The notes: a model not told the origin generated them from the sequence alone. 64,000 nucleotides of DNA from Eledone cirrhosa (GCA_964016885.1 OZ024754.1:26412001-26476000); one strand, 5' to 3'. Shown: positions 13,431-58,504, counted from the first letter of the stretch. Made by a program: numbers and translations.

Positions 13431-15604
13431 TACCGTGACGATGGTCTTTTGACCATGACTAAGTGAAGACCTCGTGCTTGCGACAGGTTCAGAAAAGAAC
13501 TCACAGCCTTCTTTAAAGGCTTCAACCTCTCTATACAGGTTGAAGCCAATCTCTCGGTCGTTAATTACCTCGACGTTACCCTTAATTTATTGTATGGGTT
13601 GTATTACCCGTATAGAAAGCCGAATGATACGCTTAATTACATAAGTAAGCATTCCAACCATCCTGCCAGCATAACCAAGAACCTGGTAAGAAACGTTTCG
13701 TTGAGGCTTTCCCGTCTTTCCACCAACGAACGTATTTTCAACGACCATTCCACTTATTACAATGAAGCTCTTGCTCGAAGTGGATTTGTCGATAAGGTAG
13801 CATATACAGAGCACGAACATAGACATAGAAGAAATAGATCCCGTCGCATTTGTTGGTATAACCCACCATATAATATGGAGGTGGCCACACCATTAGCTAA
13901 GATCTTTCTTTCCCTTATTACGAAGCATTTCCCCCCTACACATAAATATAGTAACATTTTTAATAGAAATACTATTAAAATTTCTTACTCTACGACTCCT
14001 AACCTTGCACATAACATCACAGCTTCAAATTTAGCTAAACTACCTAGCCGTAGGAACACGTGCAACCCTGTAGTTAGTACTAACTGTAATTGTAAGAATC
14101 GGGCTGATTTGCCCCTATCCGGGAAATGCCTCTGTAGTAACATTGTCTACAAATGTAAGGTTGTAACACCCACGTCCCATAGGGCCTACATAGGGTTAAC
14201 CGCCAATAGTTTCAAGCAGCGTCTTTACATGCATACCCATTCTTTTCGTTACCCTCTAAGAAGGAATATGACGTCACTTTCAGCTCATATCTGGAGTCTA
14301 AAAGACAACCACACCCAATGTAAGTTACACTGGGAGATCCTAGCTAGGGCTAGATCGTATAACGGAAATAAAAGACCATGTGACCTCTGCGTCGCTGAGG
14401 CCCTGGAAATACTCTACGCCACAGACCACATCTTAAACAAAAAATCTGAGGCAATTTCGGCTTGTAAACATAAATTGCACAAAACTTTCCTGTATTACAG
14501 CCCCACGTTATACCCTAACGGATAGTACGATCTATACGTGGATATTTTACGTCTTGGTGTGGGAGCTAAGTATATGTTTTGTTTATTCCTTTACTTATTT
14601 GCATAGGTAAGTATATATTACCCGTATGTTTTGTGAAGGTACGTATACCTTCTCGTACGTATATATTGATTGTTATGGCGTATAATTTTATATTTCTGGT
14701 ACATAGGGTTTGACTATGTGTATACGGGAGTTTTGCGTCTGTGTGAGTATGCAGGTTCGTACGTATGGTGGGTGTGTGTATATGTCTACTTCTTGTTTTA
14801 GTTGACTTACGTCTCCGAACATTCGTGTATTTATATGTAGGTATGTGTGTGCGCTTGTTATATACGTATTTATTTATTCTTATACGTTTATATAATTATT
14901 TATTTATTTGTATACACGCATACACACACACACATATTTATATGCGCGTGGTTTTGTATACCTATGGTAAGGTTTTGCGTATGCTTGTGTATGTACGTGT
15001 TTGTTTGCGTGTATGTATTTATTTATTTCTCATTACTTCTGTATTGTATTTATTTACTTTGTTCTTAACTCTGTAGCGGTGATTCATTTGGTCTCCTAGT
15101 TAGAATTTTAGTCTACGACTTCTGCTATACGATTTACGTGGTTTTGTCTTGGCGTGCTATTGTTCCCCACGCTCCACATATGACGTATTATCTTCGTTTT
15201 TTCGTTCATTGCCAGAGAACGTCTCTATGCACCACCTAAGAGAACATTAGTCTACGACCTCTTTTATACCATGAACGTGGTTCTGTCTTTGCACGTAATT
15301 GTTTTTCACCGCTCCTATTAATGACGTATTATTCGTTTTTTCCCGTTCTTTGCCAGCGAACGTTACCACGAACCAAAGTATCGTCTTCCTGTCTTCTTCC
15401 GGTTGCAACGTTTTTTGAAATATCCAGTTCTGCGTTTACAGATTGACTTTGTTAGTATCAGAAGATCCCGTTAAGGGTGAAAGCAGCGATTCTTTGCTTA
15501 ATCTGTTATTTTAATAACTATTTGCTCTATGGTTCTTATATATTTGATATATATTTATCCTTATCGAGCCCTCTTTGGATTTTAGTCTTCAAATTTATTA
15601 TTAT

Positions 15605-17429: not shown

Positions 17430-18870
17430 AAAAATGGAGAGAAACAGGGGGATATTCCAGCACTGACCCTATTTGCCATATACTTTGCAATGGTTTTCTA
17501 TATTGCTTTCAGGAATTGCAAGTATGGTATTTGCATCTACTATCGAACCACTAATTTAACATCAGGCGCTTTGCTGTAAAAACAAAAGTCATAAGAGACC
17601 TCTTGTATGCAGATGATTGCGATCTTGTAGCGCACACAGAGATTGATATGCAGCACATTTTGAATGCATTTTCTGATCTTTGCACTGCCCTAGGATTGAC
17701 TGTCAGTCTCAAGAAAACCGTCGTCAGGTACCAACCTGCCCCTGGTAAGCAGTACAATGAACCAAATATCTATGTGTATGGTAAACGACTTGAAGTGGTT
17801 GATCAGTTTGTCTACCTGGGAAGCACTGTCAATCGATACAGCAATCTTGATAATGAAATTCCACTTAGGATTAGGAAAGCAAGTGGTGCTTTCGGAAAGC
17901 TAGAAAGGCGTCTCTGGGGTCGACGAGACATATGCAAGAAGTCAAAGGTAAAGGTGTACAAGGCGTGTGTACTCTCTTCTCTTCTTTATGCCTGCGAGAC
18001 GTGGGTCACATATCAACACCACCTTAAACAGTTAGAACGCTTCCATGAGATGTCTCAGACGGATCCATAGCGTTCAGTGGAGGGACCACATCAGTGATGT
18101 TGATATTTTGGAAGGCTTTCTGTGTGAAAGTATAGAAGCTCATGTGCCTAAGCAAAGACTCCAATGGAGTGGTCACCTTGCCAGGATGAAGGATTCTAGA
18201 ATACCAAAACAACTCTTTTATGGAGAGTTAGTTAAAGGAAAATGACTTTCACATAAACCAAAAATGAGGTATAAGGATTCGTTGAAAACCTCCTTGAAAG
18301 ACGCTAAAATCTCTGCTGATACATCGGAAAGCGTAGCTGCTGATCGTAATAAATGGAGTAAGACTGTACATGAGGGGAAAGTTGCTTTTGAGGCATCTCG
18401 AATCACATACTAGAAAGTAAAAAGGGATGTGAGGAAGGGCATTGCTGTTACATTTCCAGACAGCGAAGGTCGTTCTATGGCGCTGATATGCAGCGTCTGT
18501 GCAAGACTCTGCCTCAGCAAAGCTGGACTCAAAAGTCATCTTCGCAGTCATAAAGTGAGGCCAGTGGTTGACTACCAGGCTGCTGTCGGAGATGCTGCTC
18601 ATCATACCTGCCGAGCATGTGGAAGAGAGTGTAGATCAGCAGGGGGCTCAAACGACATGCAAACGTACATGAAGACCAACCGAAACCGGCTATTCCCAGT
18701 GAATGTTTTTATTATGGTTACCAACTCTGTGCAATATATTTTAGATCATTGGCTGGGCTACAAAGCCACATTCGATCGCAGCACCGTTAATTATTAATAT
18801 ATATATATATATTTTTTTATCGTGCAATGGCCATATTCGATAACGAGGAGGTAGCCATCATGTATGTATA
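17430..18870 (+). mobile_element. 5'-truncated, decayed RTE-clade LINE
   Basis: GEKQGDIPALTLF, YADD, FVYLGS, LLYACETW, RLQWSGHLARM..RIPKQLFYGEL, then C2H2 fingers; 3' stem-loop GGCCATATTCGATAACGAG..GCCATC and an ATGT-type tail. Confidence 0.9.
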
Positions 18871-18914
18871 TATGTTTACATGTATGTATGTATGTATGTA
18901 TGTATGTATGTATG

Positions 18915-21900
18915 TTCTTTTGGTTTTATAATTTCACAAAGTTTTACCAATAGAGAGAGAGTCGGTTTCTAACATAGACACAAGACTCTCTCATTGGAAT
19001 TTACACAACATCAACTAGGTAGATATGTATGTATGCATGCATGTGTAGATATGGATGTTATTGTATGTGTGGATGTGGATGTTTTGAGTTGTATGTGTGC
19101 ATGTGTATATGCTTTGTATCTGTACATGTGTATATGCAGTTATTAGATGCAAAATGTTTGGAATGTTTTACATATTTTTTACTGTTCCATTAATGGATTG
19201 TACTTGTCGTTTCCTAACTAGTTGTGTTCTTTCTGTTCCTGTGAAGCCTAGCTTCTCAAGATTTGTATTGAGGCAGTTACTTACATATCCCAGTGCCCCA
19301 ATAATCACAGGCATAAATCTGAAGGTGTAATCAGGGTGGAGTATCTGCAGATTTCTCATCAGTTCTGCATAAATATTCTCCTTTTCACTAATCTTTGCTA
19401 TTATATTGGCATCTGCTGGGCAGCTAATTTCCACTACTGTGCATGTTTTCTTCTCCCTGTCCCATATCACAATATCTGGTCTGTTATGCCTGCATATTAT
19501 TGGGGTTTTTACTGGAACATTCCACCAGTACTCTTTCATATTATGTACATGGATGTCTTCCACATTGTTGTAGCTTTTAATGTGTTTATTATCGGGGCTT
19601 TCTTTTTTACGAACTGCATTGTACAGTGTTTTGGCCACTACATCATGCCTCATAGGTAGATAGTACCGTGATGACATCTTTGGGCAGCTGCTGATGACAT
19701 GGGTGATATCCTCGATGTTAGTTCTGCAGAGTCTGCACTTGTTATCACATCTAGGTGTTTTGCCTGCATCCCTATCTCTTTTGTGAATCAGGTATTTCGT
19801 GCTAATCTCCTGTTCTTGGATTGCAAAAGCGTATCCTTCAAAGTGGGAGCCAATATAGCGGTTCTTCGTCCAAGATAGACTACTTTCCTTATCTATACTA
19901 CTCTCACTCTGGAGCTTCCTGGCAACATATCCATGCATGAGTTTTTGCTGATAGGCATGTAGTTTTTCATCCATGGATTCACTGCGATACTGCTGAGCGA
20001 CGTCCCTGGGTGTGAGTTTTTGATTATCACACAGGGAATATCTCTCAAGGAGTTCCTTCCCAACTCTCATAATCTTATCTGTTTCATGCAGATAGACTTG
20101 CTCGAGAAGCGGGCTCCAACGAGATTCGTAGATGTTGTCGGAGGGATATGATGCGACATTCAAATGTTGTCTGGACTGATGTTAGGCCTCTTCCTCCCTG
20201 CTTACGTTTCAAGTAAAGGCGGTCTATGTCACTGTTGATGTGGAAGTTTCCGGTATTGTTCAGTATTTTTCGAGTTCCAACATCAACTGCTCGGATTTCG
20301 TCTATTGTCCAATTGAGTATTCCAAACGTTGGTGTTAGGACAGGCACAGCAAACACATTGTGAGCCACTGTTTTGTTTTGCGCAGAGAGTTCCGATGACC
20401 AGATCTTTCTTAATCGGGTTACGCGTTCTTTATTACAGATACCATTATAGGATATGTTCTCATCTATCCCCAGGTATCTGCAGGAGTCGTCATCAGATAT
20501 CGGTGAAACAGTTATACCATTGATGACAATGTTGCTAGATTGGGTTGTTGTTTTTCCCCGCTTTACAGTCATGTATGAGCATTTATCTTGGCCAAACTCC
20601 ATTCCTATATCCTTTGAGAACGTTGTAACCAGGTGAAGATTTTTCTTCATCCCAACCATGTTCTTGGCATAGAGTTTCAGATCGTCCACAAAGAAGTTAT
20701 GGGTTAGGTTCGTATTTCTGTCCTCCTGTGAGCTAATGATGTATCCCTCACATTTCTTGAGCAGAAAGGACAAGGGGTTTAATGACAAGATGAACAATAT
20801 CACAGAGAGACTGTCCCCCTGAAATATACCCCTGCAATATTTTATTTTATCAGTGAAAATAGAGTCCTCCCTCTCTGTCTTTAACCTTAGGATAATAGTC
20901 CAAGAAGAAGACAGTCTCTATGGCTCTGACAATAATGTCTGGGACTTTAGCAAGTTGGAGGGCCTCTATCATCCAAGAGTGGGGAACAGAATCGAAAGCT
21001 TTCTTGTAGTCCAGCCATATTCTTCCTAAGTTGTCGCACCTCTGACATCGCAGTTTTGTTGATTAGGAGTTGTTCAGCACATCCCCAAACCCTTTTCTTT
21101 CCAGCTGCTTGTTCATCTGTGATGATGTTATTATTTTCACAGTGATCTTGGAGGAATAGGTTGAGGCAGGCTGTATACATCTTATATATCAGGTTCTGGC
21201 ATGCAATGGGTCGGTAGTTTTTTGCCAAGTGGGTGTCTTTGTTCTTGGGGACCAGTAACGTTTGTGCTAATGTCAACCATTCTGGTATAAGTGTATCTCC
21301 ATTAAGAACTTGTTGGTAGAGGTCAGTAAGATACCTCCGATAGAATATTAGTTTTTTGTACCAGTAGCCGACAATCATGTCTCTTCCTGGTGTTTTCTTA
21401 TCTTGGAGTTTTCCTATCACAGTCTCAAGGGTACCCTCACTTATTTCGTATGTTTTTGTTGTAGTGTAGGAGCAATAGTTCTTTCGGATTTCTCTTAGCC
21501 ACACTGCATCTTGGTTGAAATTCTTCTTTTCACCCCATATTTTTCTCCAAAAGGAATCTGTCTTTCTGGGATGGGGCCTCAGTGACACTTATTATTTTGC
21601 CCTTCATATCTCTATAGACTGATGTTTGGTTTCGTCTGAATCTTTTATTAAGCATTTTTCTTTCATCTACCTTCTTCAGGTATCGGCGTTTTTCGCTAAC
21701 AGCTCTCAATTCTTGTTTGAGGGTGATCAGCTTATATTGAAGAGTTCTGGTTCTACTGTTACCAAACATCATCTCTATTTTATTTTTCACTCTTTGTTGG
21801 TGAGGAGTGAGGTTTTTTGTGTTTGTTTGCATGTAAGGAGCATCGTCACATGTCCTATGTTCTTTCGTAGGTCAGCACTCTTTTTTTCTATTTTAGTTAT

Positions 21901-22031
21901 ATATGATGGTATTTTTGGTGGTGTTTTGTTCTAGTTAATATCTCTGCTATAACCAAGATAATGCTTCACTGTCATTGCTAAGGCATATAAACAGGCGTTG
22001 ATTTGCCAAAATGTTGGGGTTTTTATCTGTC
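18915..22031 (-). mobile_element. R4/Dong-clade RLE non-LTR retrotransposon, divergent, 5'-truncated, frameshifted
   Basis: NYRPIAC, FFVDDLKLY, CRLC..ITHVISSC, RHD, RPDIVIWD..VEISCP; bounded by (TATG)n on both sides. Confidence 0.9.
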
Positions 22032-22056
22032 GTATGTATGTATGTATGTATGTATG

Positions 22057-22090
<34 letters not shown>

Positions 22091-22107
22091 TGTATGTATG
22101 TATGTAT

Positions 22108-25100
22108 CTCTTTCTCTTAATTTCGAGTATATTTTTTTGACCGGCCACCTTCCTGGTGGCAAGGTTGTAAAAGAAAATAAATTGTCATCCCTTGAATCGC
22201 AAGAATGTTTTGCAAATTTTGAAGGTGCCAGCTATCTCAGCCATTTGTAGACTATGAATTAGGGAGCTGCGCTTTTTGTCCGCAAATCCAAGTTCAGTCA
22301 TACTTTGGTCCAAGCGGGTTGGTATATAACCCGTAGCTCCAATAATGATGGGTATGAAGGTAAAGGTGTATCTTGGATACTGGATTTGTAAACTCCTCAT
22401 CAATGGTTCGTAGATGTCCTCCTTCTCCTGTATTTTTCTGACAACGTTTACATCAAGTGGGCAGCTGATCTCCACAACATAACACGTTTTCAATGTGTGG
22501 TCCCAAACAACAATATCAGGCCGGTTGTGCTTTAATTTGGTGGCAGTTTTTATTTTCAGGTTTCACCAGTATTCCTTAGTGCCATCTATCTCAATATATT
22601 CCTCCTCGTTTGTTGTTAATTTTGTTTTCCGAAGTGCGTTCCAGATGGTTCTAGCTATCCCATCGTGTCTCATGGGGAGGTAGTAGCGAGATGACAATCT
22701 TTCGCAGCTGGCAACAAGTGGCTTACATCCTCGATCTTTGTTTTACATAGCCTACATTTATTGTCAGCTGCTGACCCTCCTCTTTTGTGCAGCAGATATT
22801 TGGTAGGGAGTTCTTGTTCCTGTATTGCATAGAGATATCCCTCAAGGTGTGATGTCATAAACTTGTCGGAACTCCATGCCAGGCTTTTTGAGTGGTTTAT
22901 CCCCTCTATGGTCTGTGTTTTACGCCTCAAGTATCCATGCACAACTTTTTCTGTAAATTGGTCAATTTTTTTTCATCTTGTTTGAACATTGAATAGGATC
23001 TTCCGATTTCTCTGGGTGAGAGATTTATATCAGGCTTTATTCCATATCTCTCCTCCAGATCAGTCGCTATTCTCATGATATATTTTTTTTTCATGCTCAT
23101 AAACCTGGGCAAGATGGTTGCCAACCTTTTTCCTCTGTTGAAGGTGTTGCTTCAGTGTTACCATCTGGGTCTCATATGTTGTTAATATTGATTTTAGACC
23201 CGGCCACCTTCCTTGCGTGAAAAGTATAGCCTATCCACATCACCATTGATGTTAAAGTTCCCAGTAATACTGAGTAGTTTTCGAGTTCTAACATCCATCT
23301 CACTTAGTTCTTGCAATGACCAGTTCAGCAGGCCAAATGTTGGCGTTAGAATTGGCACAGCATAAGTATTGTGGGCAATGTATTTGTTGTATGCTGACAG
23401 TTCTGATGACCATATTTTCTTTACTCTTCTGAGGTATTCAGTTCTGGTTCTCTCCTTATTTATGGGTCCATCATATCTGACATTCTCATCCTGTCCAAGA
23501 TATCTGTAGTTGTCACCTGACTGCAGAGGTTGTATTGTCAGGCCGTTCATCTCTAGATTTCTAGAGGAGGGCACAGCTCTTCCATGTTTTACTGCCAAAT
23601 ATGCACACTTGGACTCACCAAATTTCATTTTGATGTCGGTTGAAAATTGTATAATGAGGTCCAATTGTTTCTTGATGTCATTGATATTTAGCCCATACAA
23701 CTTCAGGTCATCAACAAAGAAAAGATGGGAGATACTTCTGGGCCCACTTCTTTGTCCACCTTGTTTCCTGAATAGGTAAGATAGTGGATTCAGTGAGAGA
23801 ACGAAGAGTAGCACTGACAAGCTATCACCCTGAAAGATGCCCTTCTGGTAATGTATCTTATCAGTCTTAACTTGCTCCTTCTCACCTCTAAGGATCAAAT
23901 TGGTGTACCAGTTCTTGGTCAGGTGTTCAACAACAGCTACCAATGGTTGTGGGACTTTAGCTAACTGTAAAGCCTTAATAATCCACCCACGAGGTACACT
24001 ATCAAATGCTTTTTGATAGTCCAGCCACACCACAGTCATGTTTCTGCGATTCTTTGTTGTTTTTTCCTGAATCATTTTGTTAGTTAGTAGGTGATCTATG
24101 CAACCCCACACCTCCCTCTTTCCACCAGCTTGCTCAGGTGTTATGATGTTGTTGGTAGCACAGTGATCCTGTAAGAACAGGTTAAGGCACCCAGTATATA
24201 ATTTATACATGATGTTTTGGCAGGCTATTGGGCGGTAATTTTTAGCAAGGGTGGTTTGGCTATTTTTGGGAATGAGGAGAGTAGTGGCAGTTGATAACCA
24301 TCTGGGAAGTTCTTGTGTGCCTTTAATGGTTTCTGTAAACAGCCGTATGAGATCTTGCCGATAGAAAGTGAAATTCTTCAACCAGTATCCTGTAATGAGG
24401 TCTGGGCCTGGCGATTTCCTATTCGACATTTTCTGTAGAGCTGTTTCCAGTATTGACCCATCTATGTCATATTGTTTTGTCTGGACATGTTGGCAGTAGT
24501 CCTGTTCCAGTTCTTTTAGCCAATTAGCTTGTCTGTTGAATCCGTCATCCGTTTCCCATACAGATCTCCAGTAACTCTCAACCTGTTCTTTTGAAGGGGT
24601 GTCGTTTACAGGGATTGAGCTTTTGCCACCGAAGCTGCGATAAACTGATTTAGGATCTATGGCAAACAATCTATTTAGCACTTGTCGTTTATGTGCTGTT
24701 AACTTATATTTTAGTCTTTCTGTTGTAGCTGTGAGTTGTTTCAACTGGTGTAATTTGGAGTTCAAAGTTTTAAATTTTGTATCTCCAAATCGTCTCTCTA
24801 ACTTTTTCTTTAGGTCTTCCTGGTGTCGTGTGAAGTTGCTCTCTATGTTGCATTTCATAACGACTGCGATGTGTGAGATACTTCGTCTCAGGGACAAAAT
24901 TTTGTTTTTTAAATTTCGCATCCACGCTGGTTCAGGCTTTCTGTTTGTATCTTGATTGCGTGGTTTTAGATGTGTGTTATATGATAGCAATGTGACAGCT
25001 GAAACATATAACAAAACATTAAGCGTTTCAAATGTCGTTTCTACACCTTTAGATCGTATAGCCTTCAGATAATTTCCAGCTATTTCGTTCACCGCTTCCA

Positions 25101-26340
25101 ATTCCAATTTATTGGGTTCTTTACTGATTCTGGTGTTGTATGGTTTGTCACTCACATTAAGGCTGTGTATCTCTTGAAACATATCGTTCCATATCACTTG
25201 TAGGGTGTCCACAAGTTTTTGGTGCTCTGTTTGTTCAGTAGAGTCATGAATTTCAGCCTCGATGTTGATGTGGTGACAATTACTACTAGAGTTAGCTGAC
25301 CTTTCTCGCTGTTCTTCAGTGGAAGTGGGATGGATTTCAGCAAAATTGTTGGTGAGCTGTTCACTGTTAGATTTAGCTGGCCATTCTCTTTGTCTGTCAG
25401 TGGAGGTGGGGTGGTTGTCTACAAGGGCTGTATTTGTAGTATCACTCAATTCCGTTAGATGTATCAATTTACATCTAATGATACGTTTTGCCTGTTCATT
25501 TAAATGCTTTGGAGAAAAGTCTAATTCTGGGTGTTTGGAGTTCCATAAAGTTTTTAGCCTTTGCATAAAACCGAACTTTTGGGGTTCAGATTGTTTGTAT
25601 GCTTCATATAATACTTTGTTAAGCTCGTAGCTCCACTGTATACAACGGTTGTAGTTGCGATTTGGTCGAAGGAGACTTGTACTTTTTGCCATGATGAGTT
25701 CGTCTATTCACTAATATTTCGTATTTATTTTTCAAAATAGTCGATGATCTTCTTTAAAAGTTTCGACAAAGTTCTGTCAGAATCAAATTTAAAGTTATTC
25801 ACAGCTTTTTAAATTTAAAGTTATTCACTTCTTTTCAGTTAGTTTTTAATTCTACAACTGTGTTTTAAACGTTGTTCTTGAATCGTTTGAATCGAGAACA
25901 AAAAGAACCGTTACTTAGTATATTCCTTTATGAATGTAATATAATATAACAACGCTGTATTTATATGTTAAAGTTTATGTATCATTCATATAAATAGGTG
26001 TTCTACAACTTATTCACAACATATTCACAGTTCAAACACTTATGTTTTTGTTTCTGAATCGAAAACGTTACTTGTATATTTCTTTATAAATGTAATATAA
26101 CAACGTTGCATTTATATGTTAAAGTATATGTATCGTTCATATATCATAAGTGTATGTATCGTTCATATAAATAGGTATTTTACAACACACTTACAGTTCA
26201 GACACTTATGTAGAATTATTGTATGTAATCTTACCGCGTAATGTAGATCAACTTTTTCCAATATATGGTATGTTGCCTTCATGTAAGCCGTAATTACACA
26301 CGTCCGATTATCGGACACTGACCACAACGGTCGCCATTGT
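22108..26340 (-). mobile_element. R4/Dong-clade RLE retrotransposon, apparently full length, frameshifted ORF (25692 to 22185)
   Basis: Near-identical to 26848-31057; ORF split into 832/65/90/102-aa pieces; (TATG)n at 22032-22107 and 26341-26424. Confidence 0.92.
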
Positions 26341-26654
26341 TATGTATGTATGTATGTATGTATGTATGTATGTATGTATGTATGTATGTATGTATGTATG
26401 TATGTATGTATGTATGTATGTATGAATTCTAGGAGAAGGAAAACTCTGATATAACACCTGCAACCCTGATGGTATCCAATGATGTTGACTTGTTCTTCTT
26501 TTTGGTAAATATCATCTTGGTTAAGAGAGTGGGACTGGCTTTGTGCAGTGCCTTTCCTCACTATAAAAGCTTCACGGCACAGGCATTGCTTTATATCTGG
26601 AGATCTCTCTGCACTTGTCGTCACATGGTACCATGGGCCCAGCACTATGTGTCA

Positions 26655-26799
26655 GTAATTGTCACAAGTGTAGTGTTTGTACCAGAGTTTTCAAGTCGCT
26701 GGCTGGACTAAAAAGTCACACTCGTTCAGCGCTTCGGTAGGGGTTCTCCTACATGGATATAAAGTAGTGGCCGTACTCGAAAACGAGTTGGCAGCCACC
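26655..26799 (+). mobile_element. 3' terminus of an RTE-clade LINE followed by its (ATGT)n tail
   Basis: Encodes CSVCTRVFKSLAGLKSHTRS*; ends GGCCGTACTCGAAAACGAGTTGGCAGCCACC, homologous to the RTE ends at 18830-18860 and 40378-40410. Confidence 0.75.
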
Positions 26800-26847
26800 A
26801 TGTATGTATGTATGTATGTATGTATGTATGTATGTATGTATGTATGT

Positions 26848-29800
26848 TTTCTCTTTCTCTTAATTTCGAGTATATTTTTTTGACCGGCCACCTTCCTGGT
26901 GGCAAGGTTGTAAAAGAAAAGAAATTGTCATCCCTTGAATCGCAAGAATGTTTTGCATATTTTGAAGGTGCCAGCTATCGCAGCCATTTGTAGACTATGA
27001 ATTAGGGAGCTGCGCTTTTTGTCCGCAAATCCAAGTTCGGTCATACTTTGGTCCAAGCGGGTTGGTATATAACCCGTAGCACCAATAATGATGGGTATGA
27101 AGCTAAAGGTGTATCTTGGATACTGGATTTGTAAGCTCCTCATCAATGGTCCGTAGATGTCCTCCTTCTCCTGTATTTTTCTGACAACGTTTACATCAAG
27201 TGGGCAGCTGATCTCCACAACAGAACACGTTTTCAATGTGTGGTCCCAAACTACAATATCAGGCCGGTTGTGCTTTAATTTGGTGGCAGTTTTTATTTTC
27301 AGGTTCCACCAGTATTCCTTAGTGCCATCTGTCTCATTATATTCTTCCTCGTTTGTTGTTAATTTTGTTTTCCGAAGTGCGTTCCAGATAGTTCTAGCTA
27401 TCCCATCGTGTCTCATGGGGAGGTAGTAGCGAGATGACATTCTTTCGCAGCTGGCAACAATGTGGCTTACATCCTCGATCTTTGTTTTACATAGCCTACA
27501 TTTATTGTCAGCTGCTGGCCCTCCTCTTTTGTGCAGCAGATATTTGGTAGGGAGTTCTTGTTCCTGTATTGCATAGAGATATCCCTCAAGGTGTGATGTC
27601 ATAAACTTGTCGGAACTCCATGCCAGGCTTTTTGAGTGGTTTATCCCCTCTATGGTCTGTGTTTTACGCCTCAAGTATCCATGCACAACTTTCTCTGTAA
27701 ATTGGTCAATTTTTTTTTCTTGTTTGAACATTGAATAGGATCTTCCGATTTCTCTGGGTGAGAGATTTATATCAGGCTTTATTCCATATCTCTCCTCCAG
27801 ATCAGTCGCTATTCTAATGATATTTCTTTTTTCATGCTCATAAACCTGAGCAAGATGGTCGCCAACCTTTTTCCTCTGTTGAAGGTGTTGCTTCAGTGTT
27901 ACTATCCGGGTCTCATATGTTGTTAATATTGATTTTAGACCCCGGCCACCTTCCTTGCGTGAGAAGTATAGCCTATCCACATCACCATTGATGTTAAAGT
28001 TCCCAGCAACACTGAGAAGTTTACGAGTTCTAACATCCATCTCACTTAGTTCTTGCAATGACCAGTTCAGTAGGCCAAATGTTGGCGTTATAATTGGCAC
28101 AGCATAGGTATTGTGGGCAATGTATTTGTTGTATGCTGACAGTTCTGATGACCATATTTTTTTTACTCTTCTGAGGTATTCAGTTCTGGTTCTCTCCTTA
28201 TTTATGGGTCCATCATATCTGACATTCTCATCCTGTCCAAGATATCTGTAGTTGTCACCTGACTGCAGAGGTTGTATTGTCAGGCCGTTCATATCTAGAT
28301 TTCTAGAGGAGGGCACAGCTCTTCCACGTTTTACTGCCAAATATGCACACTTGGACTCACCAAATTTCATTTTGATGTCGGTTGAAAATTGTGTAATGAG
28401 GTCCAATTGTTTCTTGATGTCATTGATATTTGGCCCATACAACTTCAGGTCATCAACAAAGAAAAGATGGGAGATACTTCTGGGCCCACTTCTTTGTCCA
28501 CCTTGTTTCCTGAGTAGGTAAGATAGTGGATTCAGTGAGAGAACGAAGAGTAGTACTGACAAGCTATCACCCTGAAAGATGCCCTTCTGGTAATGTATCC
28601 TATCAGTCTTAACCTGCTCCTTCTCACCTCTAAGGATCAAATTGGTGTACCAGTTCTTGGTCAGGCGTTCAACAGCAGCTACTAATGGTTGTGGGACTTT
28701 AGCTAACTGTAAAGCCTTAATAATCCACCCATGAGGTACACTATCAAATGCTTTTTGATAGTCCAGCCACACGACAGTCATGTTTCTGCGATTCTTTGTT
28801 GTTTTTTCCTGAATCATTTTGTTAGTTAGTAGGTGATCTATGCAACCCCACACCTCCCTCTTTCCACCAGCTTGCTCAGGTGTTATGATGTTGTTGGTAG
28901 CACAGTGATCCTGTAAGAACAGGTTAAGGCACCCAGTATATAATTTATACATGATGTTTTGGCAGGCAATTGGGCGGTAATTTTTAGCAAGGGTGGTTTG
29001 GCTATTTTTGGGAATGAGGAGAGTAGTGGCAGTTGATAACCATCTGGGCAGTTCTTGTGTGCCCTTAATGGTTTCTGTAAACAGCCGTATGAGATCTTGC
29101 CGATAGAAAGTGAAATTCTTCAACCAGTATCCTGTAATGAGGTCTGGGCCTGGCGATTTCCTATTCGACATTTTCTGTAGAGCTGTTTCCAGTATTGACC
29201 CATCTATGTCATATTGTTTTGTCTGGACATGTTGGCAGTAGTCCTGTTCCAGTTGTTTTAGCCAATTAGCTTGTCTGTTGAATCCGTCATCCGTTTCCCA
29301 TACAGATCTCCAGTAGTTCTCAACCTGTTCTTTTGAAGGGGTGTCGTTTACAGGGATTGAGCTTTTGCCACCGAAGCTGCGATAAACTGATTTAGGATCT
29401 CTGGCAAACAATCTATTTAGCACTTGTCGTTTATGGGCTGTTGACTTATATTTTAGTCTTTCTGTTGTAGCTGTGAGTTGTTGTTTCAACTGGTGTAATT
29501 TGGAGTTCAAAGTTTTAAATTTGGTATCTCCAAATCGTCTCTCTAACTTTTTCTTTAGGTCTTCCTGGTGTCGTGTGAAGTTTCTCTCTATGTTGCATTT
29601 CATAACGACTGCGATGTGTGAGATACTTCGTCTCAGGGACAAAATTTTGGTTTTTAAATTTCGCATCCACGCTGGTTCAGGCTTTCTGTTTGTATCTTGA
29701 TTGCGTGGTTTTAGATGTGTGTTATATGATAGCAATGTGACAGCTGAAACATATAACAAAACATTGAGCGTTTCAAATGTCGTTTCTACACCTTTAGATC

Positions 29801-31057
29801 GTATAGCCTTCAGATAATTGCCAGCTATTTCGTTCACCGCTTCCAATTCCAATTTAGTGGGTTCTTTACTGACTCTAGTGTTGTATGGTCTGTCACTCAC
29901 ATTAAGGCTGTGTATCTCTTGAAACATATCGTTCCATATCACTTGTAGGGTGCCCACAAGTTTTTGGTGCTCTGTTTGTTCAGTAGAGTCATGAATTGCA
30001 GCCTCGTTGTTGATGTGGTGACAATTACTACTAGAGTCAGCTGACCTTTCTCGCTGTTCTTCAGTGGAAGTGGGATGGATTTCAGCAAAATTGTTGGTGA
30101 GCTGTTCACTGTTAGATTTAGCCGGCCATTCTCTTTGTCTGTCAATGGAGGTGGGGTGGTTGTCTACAAGGGCTGTATTTGTAGTATCACTCGATTCCGT
30201 TAGATGTATCAATTTACATCTAATGATACGTTTTGCCTGTTCATTTAGATGCTTTGGAGAAAAGTCTAATTCTGGGTGTTTGGAGTTCCATAAAGTTTTT
30301 AGCCTTTGCATAAAACCGAACTTTTGGGGTTCAGATTGTTTGTATGCTTCATATAATTCTTTGTTAAGCTCGTAGCTCCACTGTATACAACGGTTGTAAT
30401 TGCGATTTGGTCGAAGGAGACTTGTACTTTTTGCCATGATGAGTTCGTCTATTCACTAATATTTTGTATTTATTTTTTTTAAATAGTCGATGATCTTCTT
30501 TAAAAGTTACGACAAAGTTCTGTCAGAATCAAATTTAAAGTTATTCACAGCTTGGGTAATATTTCTTTTCAGTTAGTTTTTAATTCTACAACTGTGTTTT
30601 AAACGTTGTTCTTGAATCGTTTGAATCGAGAACAAAAAGAACCGTTACTTAGTATATTCCTTTACGAATGTAATATAATATAACAATGCTGTATTTATAT
30701 GTTAAAGTTTATGTATCATTCATATAAATAGGTGTTCTACAACATATTCACAACATTCACAGTTCAAACACTTATATTTTTGTTTCTGAATCGAAAACGT
30801 TACTTTTATATTTCTTTATAAATGTAATATAACAACGTTGCATTTATATGTTAAAGTGTATGTATCGTTCATATATCATAATTGTATGTATCGTTCATAT
30901 AAATAGGTGTTTTACAACACACTTACAGTTCAAACACTTATGTAGAATTATTGTATGTAATCTTACCGCGTAATGTAGCTCAACTTTTTCCAATATATGG
31001 TATGTTGCCTTCATGTAAGCCGTAATTACACACGTCCAATTATCGGACACTGACCAC
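26848..31057 (-). mobile_element. R4/Dong-clade RLE retrotransposon, near full length, intact ORF
   Basis: Single ORF, 620-nt 5' UTR, 80-nt 3' UTR with GCCACC-AGGAA-GGTGGC hairpin; 3' end abuts (ACAT)12. Confidence 0.93.
26928..30437 (-). CDS. RT / restriction-like endonuclease polyprotein (1169 aa)
   Basis: N-terminal Myb-like segment; RT motifs KSPGPD, NYRPIAC, LDYQKAFDSV, GIFQGDSLS, FVDD, YRYLG; CCHC (CRLC..H..C), RHD, PD..E..K. Confidence 0.95.
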   Translation of the reverse strand: MAKSTSLLRPNRNYNRCIQWSYELNKELYEAYKQSEPQKFGFMQRLKTLWNSKHPELDFSPKHLNEQAKRIIRCKLIHLTESSDTTNTALVDNHPTSIDRQREWPAKSNSEQLTNNFAEIHPTSTEEQRERSADSSSNCHHINNEAAIHDSTEQTEHQKLVGTLQVIWNDMFQEIHSLNVSDRPYNTRVSKEPTKLELEAVNEIAGNYLKAIRSKGVETTFETLNVLLYVSAVTLLSYNTHLKPRNQDTNRKPEPAWMRNLKTKILSLRRSISHIAVVMKCNIERNFTRHQEDLKKKLERRFGDTKFKTLNSKLHQLKQQLTATTERLKYKSTAHKRQVLNRLFARDPKSVYRSFGGKSSIPVNDTPSKEQVENYWRSVWETDDGFNRQANWLKQLEQDYCQHVQTKQYDIDGSILETALQKMSNRKSPGPDLITGYWLKNFTFYRQDLIRLFTETIKGTQELPRWLSTATTLLIPKNSQTTLAKNYRPIACQNIMYKLYTGCLNLFLQDHCATNNIITPEQAGGKREVWGCIDHLLTNKMIQEKTTKNRRNMTVVWLDYQKAFDSVPHGWIIKALQLAKVPQPLVAAVERLTKNWYTNLILRGEKEQVKTDRIHYQKGIFQGDSLSVLLFVLSLNPLSYLLRKQGGQRSGPRSISHLFFVDDLKLYGPNINDIKKQLDLITQFSTDIKMKFGESKCAYLAVKRGRAVPSSRNLDMNGLTIQPLQSGDNYRYLGQDENVRYDGPINKERTRTEYLRRVKKIWSSELSAYNKYIAHNTYAVPIITPTFGLLNWSLQELSEMDVRTRKLLSVAGNFNINGDVDRLYFSRKEGGRGLKSILTTYETRIVTLKQHLQQRKKVGDHLAQVYEHEKRNIIRIATDLEERYGIKPDINLSPREIGRSYSMFKQEKKIDQFTEKVVHGYLRRKTQTIEGINHSKSLAWSSDKFMTSHLEGYLYAIQEQELPTKYLLHKRGGPAADNKCRLCKTKIEDVSHIVASCERMSSRYYLPMRHDGIARTIWNALRKTKLTTNEEEYNETDGTKEYWWNLKIKTATKLKHNRPDIVVWDHTLKTCSVVEISCPLDVNVVRKIQEKEDIYGPLMRSLQIQYPRYTFSFIPIIIGATGYIPTRLDQSMTELGFADKKRSSLIHSLQMAAIAGTFKICKTFLRFKG

Positions 31058-31289
31058 CAGCGCTTCGGTAGGGGTTCTCCTACATGGATATAAAGTAGTG
31101 GCCGTACTCGAAAACGAGTTGGCAGCCACCATGTATGTATGTATGTATGTATGTATGTATGTATGTATGTATGTATGTATGTATGTATGTATGTATGTCT
31201 CTCTTGTTCTCTCTCTTTCTTCCCAAGCGTGAAACTAATAAGACTTTGCGCTTTTGCATCTCTGTGTTTGTCTTGTTTAATCTTGAACA

Positions 31290-37866: not shown

Positions 37867-40155
37867 TATTAAAATAACAGATTAAAGTTTAAGCAAAGAA
37901 TCGCTGCTTTCACCCTTAACGGGATCTTCTGAAACTAACAATGTCAATCTGTAAACGCGGGCGGTGGTTTGTACCGTGACGATGGTCTTTTGACCATGAC
38001 TAAGTGCGGACCTCGTGCTTGCGACAGGTTCAGAAAAGAACTCACAGCCTTCTTTAAAGGCTTCAACCTCTCTATAGAGGTTGAGGCCAATCTCTCGATC
38101 GTTAATTACCTCGACGTTACCCTCAATTTATTGAATGGGTTGTATTACCCGTATAGAAAGCCGAATGATACGCTTAATTACATAAGTAAGCATTCCAACC
38201 ATCCTGCCAGCATAACCAAGAACCTGGTAAGAAACGTTTCGTTGAGGCTTTCCCGTCTTTCCACTAACGAACGTATTTTCAACGACCATTCCACTTATTA
38301 CAATGAAGCTCTTGCTCGAAGTGGATTTGTCGATAAGGTAGCATATACAGAGTACGAAAATAGACCTAGAAGTAATAGACCCCGTCGCATTTGTTGGTAT
38401 AACCCCCCATATAATATGGAGGTGGCCACACCATTAGCTAAGATCTTTCTTTCCCTTATTACGAAGCATTTCCCCCTACACATAAATATAGTAAAATCTT
38501 TAATAGAAATACTATTAAAATTTCTTACTCTACGACTCCTAACCTTGCACATAACATCACAGCTTCAAATTTAGCTAAACTACCTAGCCGTAGGAACACA
38601 TGCAACCCTGTAGCTAGTACTAACTGTAATTGCAGGAATCGGGCTGATTGCCCCCTATCCAGGAAATGCCTCTCTAATAACATTGTCTACAAATGTAAGG
38701 TTGTAACACCCACGTCCCGTAGGGCCTACATAGGGTTAACCGCCAATAGTTTCAAGCAGCGTCTTTACATGCATACCCATTCTTTTCGTTACCCTCTAAG
38801 AAGGAATATGACGTCACTTTCAGCTTATATCTGGAGTCTAAAAGACAACCACACCCAATATAAGTTACACTGGGAGATCCTAACTAGGGCTAGATCGTAT
38901 AACGGAAATAAAAGACCATGTGACCTCTGCGCCGCTGAGGCCCTGGAAATACTCTACGCCACAGACCACATCTTGAACAAAAAATCTGAGGCAATTTCGG
39001 CTTGTAAACATAAATTGCACAAAACTTTCCTGTATTACAGCCCCACGTTATACCCTAACGGATAGTACGATCTATACGTGGATATTTTACGTCTTGATGT
39101 GGGAGCTAAGTATATGTTTTGTTTATACCTTTACTTATTTGCATAGGTAAGTATATATTACCCGTATGTCTTGTGAAGGTACGTATACCTTCTCGTACGT
39201 ATATTTGATTGTTATGGCGTATAATTTTATATATTCTGGTACATATGGTTTGGCTATGTGTATACGGGAGTTTTGCGTCTGTGTGAGTATGCAGGTTCGT
39301 ACGTATGGTGGGTGTGTGTATATGTGTACTTCATGTTTTGGTTGACTTACGTCTCCGAACATTTGTGTGTTTATAAGAAAGGTATGTGTGTGCGCTTGTT
39401 ATATACGTATTTATTTATTTATATACGTTTATATAATTATTTATTTATTTGTATACACGCATACTCACACACGCACATATTTATATGTGCGGTGTTTTGT
39501 ATACCTATGGTAAGTTTTTGCGTATGCTCGTGTATGTACGTATTTGTTTGCGTGTATGTATTTATTTATTTCTATTACTTCTGTATTGTATTTATTTACT
39601 TTGTTCTTAACTCTGTAGCGGTGATTCATTTGGTCTCCTTGTTATAAATTTAGTCTACGACTTCTGCTATACCATTTATGTGGTTTTGTCTTTGCGTGCT
39701 ATTGTTCTCCACGCTCCACATATGACGTATTATCTTCGTTTTTTCGTTCATTGCCAGAGTACGTCTCTTTGCACCACCTAAGAGAACATTAGTCTACGAC
39801 CTCTTTTATACCATAAACGTGGTTCTGTCTTTGCGCGTAATTGTTTTTCACCGCTCCTATTAATGACGTATTATATTCGTTTTTTCCCGTTCTTTGCCAG
39901 CGAACGTTTCCACGAACCAAAGTATCGCCTTCCTGTCTTCCTCCGGTTGCAACGTTTTTTGAAATATCCAGCTCTGCGTTTACAGATTGACTTTGTTAGT
40001 TTCAGAAGATCCCGTTAAGGGTGAAAGCAGCGATTCTTTGCTTAAACTTTAATCTGTTATTTTAATAAATATTTGCTCTACGGTTCTTATATATTTGATA
40101 TATATTTATCCTTATCGAGCCCTCTTTGGATTTTAGTCTTCAAATTTATTCTTAT

Positions 40156-42871: not shown

Positions 42872-43246
42872 ATATATATATATATATATATATATTGTTA
42901 TTCTTTGGGAGGGTCATGTTGCCAATAAGAAACACACGCACCAGTTGCTTTCACTTCAATTTATTATTATAATAAATTTATAATAAATTTATAAATTTAT
43001 AAATTTCTGGTTGGTTGGTTGGTTCCACAACCAGATAGTTGTTTATATATTGTCATAGTTCTTTCGTCACACACTCTGTGACCTCTTCAGTGACTGGGGA
43101 TTCCTTTCTTTGTTTCTGTGCCTCTCCTTTGTTCTGTCCTACGCCATTTTGTTTCTGTGTGTGTGTTGTGTGCTCAGTCTGCGCATGCGCCACATCCGGG
43201 TGTCTGTGTGTGTTTATGTTCATTTATTTATTTGTTTATTTACATG

Positions 43247-45700
43247 TTACTGGTTGGTTGTTTGTTTTATGGGTGTGTGTGTTTTCATTTTGTCCTTAAT
43301 TGTAAGTTGTGATGTTGCTGTTTTCTGTTGTGAATGTTTTCTATTTAATTTTGGTTGTAATTCTTTTATGTTTATTGCCTCTGTAATTTGTCTAAACATT
43401 GCGTCTTTTCTGTGTGTAGATTCTATTTTTATTTCTATGTTCTCTAATTTACCCTTGTGTTCTATTTTAGCATGTTGGTAGAGTACAGATGATTCTTTAC
43501 TATCTTGAAGGTCTCGCTAGTATTCATTTATCCGTTCCCCTACACTACGAGCTGTCTCACCTATGTACACTATATTTTTGTCTCTACATTGTCCTTCAGT
43601 ACATCTTATGCTATACACTACATTTCTAGTTTTACAGTTAATATGGGGGCTTATTTTACAGGTTATACATTTCTTATCTATACATGAGGGTCTTTGAAAA
43701 GGGTATGTCTTGCTAATAAGTGTTTTTACGGAGGTACCTGGTCTTTCTACTATCTTAATATTGAGTTTATGTTTATTTAGGGCCCTTCTAAATTTGTAAG
43801 CTAATTCACCTCTAGGGGTTGTATCGATGAACATTACACTCTGGTATTTATTGCTATCATACCATGAGTTTATTCTATTAGCCTTGTTCCTAGTTCTTTC
43901 TATTCTATTCCAAAATTTGTTCCTATACAAGGGGCAGGTCCCATTTATGTCATTATTTACCATTTTTTCCCATTTGGTTCTGGCTCCTCTATACACTCTG
44001 ATTTTATCTCTCTGATTGTAGCCAGAGAACTGCATACGGTGGATGAAGTGTTGTATGTGTCTCTCTAGTTCTTCGGGGTTGCACATGCGGGACACGTTTC
44101 TCATCACCCGTACCAAATCCGCAATCAGTATGTTGATTTTGGTATGGTCTGAAACGGCCGAGTTTCGGTGGATCAGATGTTTGGAAGTCATGGGTTTGGC
44201 ATAATGGGAATGGAGGATTTGTTTTTTGTTATTAATGGTATCTCACCAGAGCTCTGTGTCTAGTACAGGTAATCGATGGTTGGGGTGTTTACTTGGGTAG
44301 TCTATAGTAACTGTAATGCTCTGGTGGATGGAGTTAGCTATTTGCTGGATGCTTTCCATTGTGTTTTTCTCTAGTTCCTGACTGTTCTCTAGTGGGGGTG
44401 TCTTAACTACGATGTTTATATCATCAACGTAGCGGGAGTACATTATCAGGGTTAAGGGGTCTTCTAATTGTTCTTTAAGCTTAAGTTTAAGTCTACTGTC
44501 CCACCATACCATGAATAAGTTAGCTATGTCGCCTGCAATGCTAACACCAATGGCTGCTCCTTCCTCTTGGGCATATGTTTTTCCATTAAATTTGAACATA
44601 TGTTCCTTAAGGATTAGTTTTATGCTGGCCCCTACCGCATGTGCAATCATTTTCTTCAGTTTATCGTGGTTTTCGGGTGTCCGTATGGCTCTGGTCCACC
44701 CGTTCCATCTATCTGTGTGGGTTTTCTTGGCCATTGAGGTAATGGTAGGTGGTCTGCCTCTTGCTGGTCTTGTAGGGCATAGGTTGCTAAGGTCATATGT
44801 GTCTAGGTAATTATTACTATAGGTAAGTTTAAGTAGGAGTCCCAGCTCACTGGTATCAATCCCACGGAACTCAACATTGCTCTCACTGATCATTTCTACG
44901 CATTTCTCCACAGCAAAATCCACGTCAATAGATGGATACAGGGACACAACATCCATACTACCTATTATGCAGTTTGGTAGGTCCCTAGATCGGTTACTCA
45001 CGCCGATTCTGCTGAGGAGGAGGTCCTCCGTGCTGTCACATACATCTGAGGACATTTCGATGATGGGGCGTATGATCAGGGAGAGGAAGTAGGACAGTCT
45101 GTAGTTACTAGCAATGTTAGCTCCACAGACTGGCCGTGTTGGTGGTCCCGCGACAGGGTCACTGCCCGTTTTATGGTCTTTTCGAGGCCCATACAACGCC
45201 GGCACGTCATTGTTCCAGGCCTGGAAGTTGTTGGCAGTCCTTTTGTTGGGCTGCATTATATTCGTCCACATCACCATATGGGCATTGAGGGCTTTTTCCC
45301 TATCCTCATGCTCCTGTGGTGTTACCTCTCTTGTGTTAGTGATGTGGGGTTGCATTGCCTGGATGTATTTTGGCAGGCTGTCAACCGACATTCTGCCAGA
45401 CTTGTCTGTTGGAAAGCATGCTATCTCTCCATTGCGCGAGCGCTGCATGAGCTTACGCAAGCCATTTGCAGATTTTGCTCCCAGTTGCTGGGCCTCCATT
45501 CTAATATGCTTCTTGCTATACTGTTCTATAATATTTCTAAGTTCGGATCTAGCTATACTAAATTGTGCTTCTGTTTGTTCATTGACCTGCGACGGCAATT
45601 GCGTGCGTTTGTTAAATGGTAAAGTCGTGGCGGGGACTCGTCGCAGGTCGAACGATTTGTCGGAGGGATTATAAAAACTAGAGTTCCAGGCTGCTGCTTT
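43247..45700 (-). pseudogene. PLE RT-GIY-YIG ORF interrupted by two in-frame stops (TGA 44243, TAG 43517)
   Basis: ORFs 44243-45775 and 43517-44191 share a frame, which continues SVLYQHAKIEH..RQITEAINI..LNRK to TAA at 43247; the first ~24 aa of the 510-aa ORF come from the inverted arm. Confidence 0.85.
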
Positions 45701-45790
45701 ATGCAGACTGAGCACACAACACACACACAGAAACAAAATGGCGTAGGACAGAACAAAGGAGAGGCACAGAAACAAAGAAAGGAATCCCCA

Positions 45791-45833
45791 GTCACTGAAG
45801 AGGTCACAGAGTGTGTGACGAAAGAACTATGAC
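45791..45833 (+). ncRNA. Minimal hammerhead (also 43052-43094 - and 53865-53907 +)
   Basis: GTCA-CTGAAGA-GGTCACA-GAGTG-TGTGAC-GAAA-GAAC-TA-TGAC. Confidence 0.7.
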
Positions 45834-46047
45834 AATATATAAACAACTATCTGGTTGTGGAACCAACCAACCAACCAGAAATTTATAAATTTATAAATTT
45901 ATTATAAATTTATTATAATAATAAATTGAAGTGAAAGCAACTGGTGCGTGTGTTTCTTATTGGCAACATGACCCTCCCAAAGTATAACAATATCGGTTTC
46001 AACACACCATTTCAGATAAAGAATCTTGCTAAACAAATTCAGAAACG

Positions 46048-46627: not shown

Positions 46628-51887
<5,260 letters not shown>

Positions 51888-57039: not shown

Positions 57040-57238
57040 TTGATATAGACGTGAATTACTTCGCTCCGGATTTTTACGGATTATTGTAAAAAAAACCGAG
57101 TTCATTGCTCAATTTAATAGCATTGTTTAGTTTAACCCCTTGCCTGGGCCGTCAGACGTTGAGTCAACTAATTTTCGCCCCTTTCTGGGGCGAAATTTTC
57201 ATTTTCATCTCAAAACTGTGTAGACTTGGTAGTCAGCA

Positions 57239-58504
57239 ATGGATGCCATTTCAACCTCGCACACTGTCGTGAGTGCCACGTTCACTAAGAAAAGTGGTGG
57301 AGGGAAGGTAGGAGTACAAAGCTTGCAGCCTTCCCCCTTCGCATTATCGAAAAACGTTGAAAATATTGAAACTACGAAACCAAACCCGGTAAATAATACC
57401 AGCACCAACAACAAGAACAATGACAACAACACCACAACCAACAACTGCAACAATAGCAACACTAAGGAAAACATGAACAATATTACCAACAGTGACAACA
57501 ACAGCAGCAACAAAAAAGATAACAACACCAAAACAACATTCGCACAGACTGTAAAAAAAAACCAACTATACACGCCAATAGACATAACAAATGCTAAACA
57601 ACTATTACAAGACGCAAAACAATTCGTGACTTTTGGCGAAAACGGTGCTTTTTGCATCAATTCTCCACAGGAATTACGTAGAGAGGCTGTCCTGAAAGCC
57701 ACAGTTTTCAGGACAATATCGAACGAAACAAGAAAACCAGCTCAATTATCACAAAATGAAATTGAGCTGGTTCTAAAAGATGCAATGAAGGACTTAACCT
57801 TCATACAAAAAGGTAAACTGTTTGGTAGCATTTCAGTGCTAATGAACAACCAGTCAACAGCACAAAAGTACTCGGTATCACCCATTGTGTCCCCCTGCTT
57901 CACCTTTTTCCCCACATACAGGGGAAAAAGGACACAAAGAATAAAAATAATGAGTATCACACCAAATGTAAATATTTGGTGGATACTATGTGGAATCATT
58001 GACTTTGACGAAGACAAGATAATTTCAATAGGAAAGTCCTCCGGAGGTGTATTTGGTGGGACTAGCGTAGAAGTTCTGGTGAAAATGAGCCCAGAACGAA
58101 TAGCGAATATCCCACAACGCGTGCCTTTGGACGGGCTAACTTATATAAACATTTCAGTGGAGGGAAGGCGGCCGTCATGTTACCACTGCTTAAGCAGGGG
58201 TCACCTGAGGGCTGCCTGTCCTCAATTAACGAGTAAAAAAAAGGCTCTTCTGCCAACCCCGAACACAACAACACAACCACTACCACCACCACCACCACCA
58301 CCACCACAACAACAACAACAACACGGAAAAATAACAACACAACACACTGTTCCACCCAACCCCTCCCTACCTAAAACAAATACAAAAGCAACCACAACAA
58401 AACCCCAAAATATACCCCTCCCCAACAACACGGAAGAGGATTCCGTATCAACGTCACCCAGTGACGACGAGGGAGAACCCTTTCAACAGGTGAAAAGGAA
58501 ATAA
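57239..58504 (+). CDS. ORF1 with CCHC zinc knuckle (probably continued by frameshift toward 59043)
   Basis: VEGRRPSCYHCLSRGHLRAACP; low-complexity N/T and P/Q tracts; lies upstream of APE-RT. Confidence 0.8.
   Translation: MDAISTSHTVVSATFTKKSGGGKVGVQSLQPSPFALSKNVENIETTKPNPVNNTSTNNKNNDNNTTTNNCNNSNTKENMNNITNSDNNSSNKKDNNTKTTFAQTVKKNQLYTPIDITNAKQLLQDAKQFVTFGENGAFCINSPQELRREAVLKATVFRTISNETRKPAQLSQNEIELVLKDAMKDLTFIQKGKLFGSISVLMNNQSTAQKYSVSPIVSPCFTFFPTYRGKRTQRIKIMSITPNVNIWWILCGIIDFDEDKIISIGKSSGGVFGGTSVEVLVKMSPERIANIPQRVPLDGLTYINISVEGRRPSCYHCLSRGHLRAACPQLTSKKKALLPTPNTTTQPLPPPPPPPPQQQQQHGKITTQHTVPPNPSLPKTNTKATTTKPQNIPLPNNTEEDSVSTSPSDDEGEPFQQVKRK

What the first reader, a model, noticed from the sequence alone, without database searches (positions are those of the whole stretch)
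26727..31198. Exceptionally long target-site duplication (73 bp unique + up to 48 bp microsatellite)
Seen: 26727-26799 and 31058-31130 are identical 73-mers (the RTE 3' end), each followed by (ATGT)n and bracketing the intact R4-like element. The sister copy lacks this 73-mer at its 5' end, so it is not part of the element. The implied TSD is 73-121 bp. Known: most non-LTR TSDs are under about 20-30 bp, and rotifer R9 with 126 bp is the noted exception. Perfect identity plus an intact ORF indicate a recent insertion.
Basis: partly seen in the sequence, partly recalled or inferred. Interest (0 to 1): 0.75.

Follow-up and report, generated by a model that had tools for sequence, protein, structure and literature searches.

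The report
One-off long duplication beside young LINE
A young jumping gene is flanked by an exact 121-base repeat that likely arose as a one-off slip during its insertion; none of 163 sister copies shows such a repeat of non-microsatellite DNA, so it is an ordinary rare accident, not a new insertion mechanism.

Summary
The repeat is real: 26727-26847 equals 31058-31178 (73 nt plus 48 nt of ATGT) around a young 4.2-kb R2/R4-type LINE with an open 1174-codon frame. It is not a family trait. Of 372 full-length 5' ends in the genome, only this one has the 73-mer's repeat just upstream. None of 163 other copies duplicates non-microsatellite flank, including 90 inserted in the same kind of target; 144 of 163 have a duplication bound under 100 nt. 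This copy is also abnormal: it lacks the 13-nt leader present in 39 of 39 near-identical copies. The 73-mer is the end of an RTE-derived repeat with over 16,000 copies, so an independent insertion is a live rival. Both copies share a variant carried by about 4-6% of that family, and 0 of 21 comparable flanking pairs are identical, which favours local copying (0.75). Likely mechanism: the element's own second nick failed and a break 73 nt beyond the microsatellite was used, as published for L1, ZfL2-2 and R2. Unlike R9, there is no fixed stagger. The scan noted similar microsatellite trains on other DNA (AAT/TTA). The junction was not confirmed in reads.

The parts
26727..26799 (+). Left copy of the 73-mer: 3' end of a 5'-truncated copy of repeat X
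26800..26847 (+). (ATGT)12: tail of repeat X and insertion target; up to 48 nt of it may belong to the duplication
26848..31057 (-). Young (ACAT)n-targeting LINE with restriction-like endonuclease (copy A), lacking the 13-nt 5' leader; standard 3' junction
26928..30452 (-). Open frame, 1174 codons: reverse transcriptase, CCHC knuckle (985), RHD (1014), RPDI..EISCP..KEDIY (1063-1100)
31058..31130 (+). Right copy of the 73-mer, joined bluntly (no microhomology, no microsatellite) to the 5' end of copy A
31131..31198 (+). (ATGT)17
26425..26799 (+). 375-nt 3' part of repeat X (~600-nt non-autonomous RTE-derived element)
26341..26424 (+). (TATG)21 between sister copy B and repeat X
22107..26338 (-). 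Sister copy B, 97% identical, frame broken, 5' leader present, microsatellite on both sides
22032..22107 (+). (GTAT)19 at the 3' end of copy B

Best explanation
The exact 121-nt repeat around this LINE copy is likely a one-off long target-site duplication, made when the element's usual second cut near the microsatellite likely failed and a break 73 nt inside the neighbouring repeat was used instead. Shown: the family inserts into (ACAT)n in a fixed register, normally with microsatellite on both sides; this copy alone has non-microsatellite target DNA copied to its 5' end, and it lacks 13 nt of its 5' leader. Inferred: first-strand nick and reverse transcription began in the (ATGT)n tail of repeat X as usual; the cDNA ended 13 nt short; it was joined without microhomology to a top-strand end 73 nt beyond the microsatellite; fill-in duplicated the 73-121 nt between the two breaks.
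For: Exact 121-nt repeat abutting both ends of the element. Both 73-mers carry a minority variant: 672 against 15,382 genomic 23-mers; 471 against 7,904 exact 73-mers; 9 of 180 copies in fetched loci. In 21 other loci with repeat X on both sides of an element, 0 of 21 pairs were identical over these 73 nt. The 3' junction is the standard one, seen in 70 of 73 young copies. The event is rare, as a failure route should be: 1 of 372 full-length 5' ends; 0 of 163 other copies. Precedent: R2 protein with impaired or limiting second-strand nicking shifts to large, heterogeneous duplications (PMC13486585, passages); L1 TSDs over 100 bp in up to 10% of events in HeLa cells (PMC5223499, passages); 1 of 25 ZfL2-2 insertions had a long TSD (PMC2666801, passages).
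Against: Repeat X often lands independently just 5' of these LINEs; one young locus has a 131-nt X piece with the same variant upstream and none downstream (L162), and L101 has a 50-nt X piece joined directly to LINE sequence with no duplication. Among 75 young copies no 5' junction lies more than 13 nt from a microsatellite, whereas 24 of 97 truncated X copies have a non-microsatellite 5' junction (some of these are internal deletions or counted twice), so the odd junction is more typical of X than of the LINE. No second case of a long duplication was found. No empty allele was seen and the junction has no read support here.
Confidence: 0.75

Rival explanations
1. The right-hand 73-mer is an independent, 5'-truncated insertion of repeat X into the microsatellite at the LINE's 5' edge, with loss of the 13-nt leader and the repeats between (target deletion), or a longer X copy later trimmed by a deletion.
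For: X has at least 16,000 copies, uses the same microsatellite from the other strand, and is often truncated, down to 50-130 nt. It lies within 900 nt upstream of many LINE copies. L101 shows a direct X-LINE joint without duplication; L162 shows a short same-variant X upstream of a young LINE. It explains the missing 13 nt in one step.
Against: It needs the newcomer to match the local copy at a variant held by about 4-6% of X copies; 0 of 21 independent pairs were identical. Short X pieces within 200 nt of a full-length 5' end occur nowhere else.
Confidence: 0.15
2. Copy A inserted normally; later a break at its 5' microsatellite was repaired by copying 73 nt or more from the empty homologue or the nearby X end (templated repair).
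For: Gives the same sequence and the same shared variant; short inserts copied from nearby element sequence occur at several 5' junctions (L089, L091, L097).
Against: Needs a second event on a very young insertion; nothing in the data asks for it.
Confidence: 0.05
3. Assembly artefact: a filled and an empty haplotype were joined, repeating the flank.
For: The structure equals 'filled allele up to near its 5' end, then empty allele from 73 nt upstream'.
Against: No N gap in the window and no homology at the junction on which an assembler could switch.
Confidence: 0.04
4. The family makes a fixed second nick about 120 bp away, like R9, normally hidden in microsatellite.
For: Only the length of this one repeat (121 nt against 126 bp for R9).
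Against: 144 of 163 copies have an upper bound under 100 nt, 134 under 73 and 78 under 30; 18 of the other 19 are repeat tracts and one is an independent X copy. 90 copies in X tails show no copied X end at the 5' junction. One genomic match for the arrangement.
Confidence: 0.01

Closest known systems
Sporadic long TSDs of LINEs (L1, PMC5223499; ZfL2-2, PMC2666801; avian R2 with impaired second-strand nicking, PMC13486585; passages read)
   Same: Rare, variable duplication well beyond the family's norm, explained by use of a distant second-strand break.
   Different: Those are cell-culture or engineered events, mostly hundreds to thousands of bp; this is a genomic copy of a microsatellite-targeting element with 73-121 bp.
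R9 of Adineta (126-bp TSD; cited in PMC6895275 and PMC13486585, original not held)
   Same: Restriction-like endonuclease LINE; similar length of duplication.
   Different: R9 is rDNA-specific and its 126-bp duplication is described as a property of the element; here it is one copy among hundreds.
Dong / R4 clade (Bombyx Dong on TAA repeats, R4 with 13-bp TSD; PMC3774820, PMC6895275 passages; 'Dong-R4' recently active in Octopus vulgaris, PMC13282606 passages)
   Same: Single frame with RT, CCHC knuckle and PD..E..K endonuclease motif, no N-terminal cysteine finger found, microsatellite target, fixed 5' and 3' ends.
   Different: Target is the tetranucleotide (ACAT)n; no tree with named references could be built; no 5' ribozyme match in Rfam.

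Membership tests
R9-type fixed long TSD | Same long duplication at most insertions | tested here: not met
   0 of 163 other copies; 144 bounded under 100 nt; 1 of 372 5' ends
R9-type fixed long TSD | rDNA target | tested here: not met
   Target is (ACAT)n; no rRNA match around the copy
Target-site duplication (this copy) | Direct repeat abutting both element ends | tested here: met
Target-site duplication (this copy) | Repeat copied from the local target, not from elsewhere | tested here: inconclusive
   Shared 4-6% variant and 0 of 21 control pairs identical favour local origin; not proof
Target-site duplication (this copy) | Empty allele holds one copy | not testable with these tools
   Only short contigs (k-mer graph pieces) and RAD-seq runs were offered; they cannot cross the microsatellite
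RLE-type non-LTR retrotransposon | RT domain related to R2 | tested here: met
   Pfam RVT_1 3.6e-25; best solved structures are R2 proteins, E 1e-28
RLE-type non-LTR retrotransposon | C-terminal CCHC knuckle, RH(D/N), PD..(D/E)..K endonuclease motifs | tested here: met
   Motif scan, (motif definitions recalled); knuckle and RH align with R2
R4/Dong clade | No N-terminal zinc fingers (recalled feature) | tested here: met
   Only one CxxC in the protein, the knuckle
R4/Dong clade | RT phylogeny groups with named R4/Dong | not testable with these tools
   None of the 120 listed homologues carried a clade name
R4/Dong clade | 5' HDV-like ribozyme | tested here: inconclusive
   No Rfam match; the missing leader forms a hairpin with the next bases in a fold
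RTE clade (origin of repeat X) | 3' end and C-terminal zinc-finger remnant shared with RTE-like LINEs | tested here: inconclusive
   3' end aligns with 18800-18870; remnant CSVCTRVFESLAGLKSH resembles frames in the window; that these are RTE clade is recalled, and no autonomous partner was traced

The most novel reading that the evidence does not exclude
This (ACAT)n-targeting family has a loosely placed second nick that routinely duplicates tens of bases of microsatellite, lengthening its own landing pads, and this copy is the rare germline case in which the duplication ran into readable DNA: a natural record of the nick-failure route so far shown only for engineered R2.
Probability: 0.12. 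Interest if true: 0.45.

Novelty: new member of a known kind. Interest (0 to 1): 0.2.

Why it matters
A second family with a fixed ~120-bp stagger would have given a handle on the open question of second-strand cleavage in LINEs; the survey rules that out. What remains is a rate: a long duplication into readable flank at about 1 in 370 full-length copies of a natural restriction-endonuclease LINE, matching a failure route recently shown for R2. It also warns that perfect flanking repeats in genomes full of young repeats need a copy survey before they are read as mechanism.

Tried and rejected
Fixed long stagger: rejected. 73-mer as part of the element or a 5' transduction: rejected, absent from 39 of 39 near-identical copies. 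Tandem duplication of copy B: rejected, the 5' flanks differ. Search for TSDs marked by microsatellite interruptions: only L056 (25-nt core inside a periodic tract) of 138, 1-nt cores at chance level; the family's normal TSD length stays unmeasured. The 15 of the first 100 listed 5' ends that lacked the exact leader were fetched: 14 had point changes, 1 (L153) lacked most of the leader but abutted microsatellite. A pattern for short elements with X on both sides found nothing; it had no positive control. Reads: a first lay on 6.2 kb was swamped by repeats; on 31000-31120 no listed contig piece of 4 runs bridged 31057/31058, while both normal continuations were seen; these runs may be other individuals and the listing is filtered, so this is no evidence either way. 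Rfam gave nothing above threshold for the element or for X. Paper searches for (ACAT)n targeting and for Dong target data returned nothing (one paper); the R9 and Dong originals were not held, so the R9 figure is second-hand. Supplements were not consulted; Repbase-type annotations may already describe this family.

Full report
Observation. The two 73-mers are identical and the exact repeat extends through 48 nt of (ATGT)n, 121 nt in all: 26727-26847 = 31058-31178. Between them, on the minus strand, lies a 4210-nt element with an open frame of 1174 codons. It has a reverse transcriptase (Pfam RVT_1), its closest solved structures are R2 proteins, and it carries a CCHC knuckle, RHD and RPDI..EISCP..KEDIY motifs with no other CxxC (motif definitions recalled). 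One named homologue is from Argonauta hians at 67% identity, so the host is probably an octopod, where 'Dong-R4' LINEs are reported as recently active (PMC13282606, passages). Clade membership was not tested by a tree.

The family. A search with the 5' end gave 40 scored matches of 675 candidates. All 39 other than the window's were fetched: 38 are 99.5-99.9% identical to copy A, one 98.9%. All 39 begin with a 13-nt leader preceded by (TACA)n-type repeats; copy A lacks the leader. Genome-wide there are 372 exact matches to the 16-mer at A's 5' end, 315 with the exact last 10 nt of the leader. Of the first 100 listed, the 15 without it were fetched: 14 have point changes and one lacks most of the leader but still abuts microsatellite. 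The 3' junction is fixed in register in 70 of 73 young copies, and copy A has it.

The 73-mer. It is the 3' end of a repeat, here called X, about 600 nt when complete (49 of 146 scored copies). X has at least 16,000 copies, lies on the strand opposite to the LINE, ends in (ATGT)n and is often 5'-truncated. Its last 60 nt align with the end of an RTE-like LINE at 18800-18870 and it holds a zinc-finger remnant like those of frames in the window; the RTE label for these is recalled. LINE 3' ends sit in X tails at 388 places, so the window's target is a common one.

Test of a fixed long stagger. Only one place in the genome, the window, has the X 3' end within 200 nt upstream of the LINE's 5' 16-mer (exact motifs, so mutated copies are missed). 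169 stretches were fetched; six were dropped (L090 no alignment chain, L152 and L154 no own 3' end, L163 N gap, L065 duplicate of L064, L155 extension of L101). In the 163 left (58 full length, 105 truncated; 90 in X tails) I measured how far the 3' flank can be found upstream. The bound is under 30 nt in 78, under 73 in 134 and under 100 in 144; median 32. Of the other 19, 18 are low-complexity repeat tracts and one (L095) is an X copy with 3 mismatches in 73 nt. A separate search for duplicated interruptions found one 25-nt core inside a periodic tract among 138. The sample is biased to young copies, to X-tail insertions and to contigs C1 and C2. There is no fixed 73-121 bp stagger. The normal TSD cannot be measured inside pure repeats.

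Is this one copy a TSD? X often sits just 5' of these LINEs as an independent insertion, so chance has to be weighed. Both window 73-mers carry a minority base: 672 against 15,382 for the 23-mer, 471 against 7,904 for the exact 73-mer, i.e. 4-6%. In 21 other loci with X on both sides no pair was identical over these 73 nt. That gives roughly 15- to 25-fold support for local copying (inference). Against: the variant copies are somewhat younger than the rest (1.4% against 2.8% from the majority); L162 has a short same-variant X upstream of a young LINE without X downstream; L101 has 50 nt of X joined directly to LINE sequence with no duplication; and non-microsatellite 5' junctions are commoner for truncated X (24 of 97, including internal deletions and repeats of the same copy) than for young LINE copies (none beyond 13 nt among 75). 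The junction is blunt under either reading. I put local duplication at insertion at 0.75, independent X at 0.15, later templated repair at 0.05, assembly artefact at 0.04.

Mechanism. Inferred: the first nick and priming occurred in the ATGT tail of X; the cDNA stopped 13 nt short; the element's own second nick in the microsatellite was not made or not used; a top-strand break 73 nt inside X was joined to the cDNA and filled in. This route is published. For avian R2, impaired second-strand nicking or low protein shifts 5' junctions to large heterogeneous duplications (PMC13486585, passages). L1 gives TSDs over 100 bp in up to 10% of events in HeLa cells and in most events in NER-deficient cells (PMC5223499, passages). 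One of 25 ZfL2-2 insertions had a 1228-bp TSD (PMC2666801, passages). R9's 126 bp and R4's 13 bp are from PMC6895275 (passages); the R9 paper was not held. Dong's TAA target and 5' ribozyme are from PMC3774820 (passages); microsatellite targeting by RLE elements from PMC4640811 (passages). PMC2861651 (passages) added nothing.

Context. The locus is a train on one microsatellite: RTE-like LINE (+), an older LINE of the same kind at 40-53% protein identity (-, 19177-21841), copy B (-), X (+), copy A (-), X end (+). Earlier notes of this scan describe similar trains on AAT/TTA in this genome; a look-up by sequence found nothing. Searches for (ACAT)n targeting in print returned nothing, but the library lacks most older papers and Repbase.

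Verdict. Real repeat, probably a true long TSD, but a singleton of a known kind of insertion accident. Interest 0.2.

Noticed in passing
window 17555-31198: Train of retroelements on one (ATGT)n microsatellite with strand polarity: endonuclease-RLE LINEs (three copies, two families) on minus, RTE-like LINE and repeat X on plus; each tail is a landing pad for the other (388 LINE ends in X tails genome-wide).
   Followed up: partly
young copies, L001-L169: The microsatellite-like tract is longer on the 5' side than on the 3' side of young copies (median 70 against 31 nt, 52 of 75, p=0.003); the sample is biased by how loci were picked. Could reflect nick position, duplication or repeat addition.
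   Followed up: partly
L089, L091, L097, L076 (5' junctions): Short inserts copied from element sequence just downstream of the truncation point, suggesting template jumps or polymerase-theta-type repair.
   Followed up: no
L101:4737-4850: 50 nt of repeat X joined directly to a 63-nt LINE end, with 2-nt microhomology and no duplication.
   Followed up: yes
L061:1467-2072: Complete ~600-nt repeat X in a head-to-tail run; no long frame, RTE-type zinc-finger remnant, 3' stem-loop; autonomous partner not traced.
   Followed up: partly
window 26326-26338 and all full-length copies: The 13-nt leader forms a hairpin with the following bases; possibly the first stem of a 5' ribozyme, which copy A would lack. 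No Rfam match.
   Followed up: partly
window 42892-45993, 47131-51217, 13467-14525, 37939-39065: Penelope-like frames (RT and GIY-YIG-like ends, label recalled), two of them inside long inverted repeats flanked by (TA)n.
   Followed up: no
window 57233-62532: Two-frame LINE with a zinc-knuckle first frame and a split RT frame, Tx1-like by recall.
   Followed up: no
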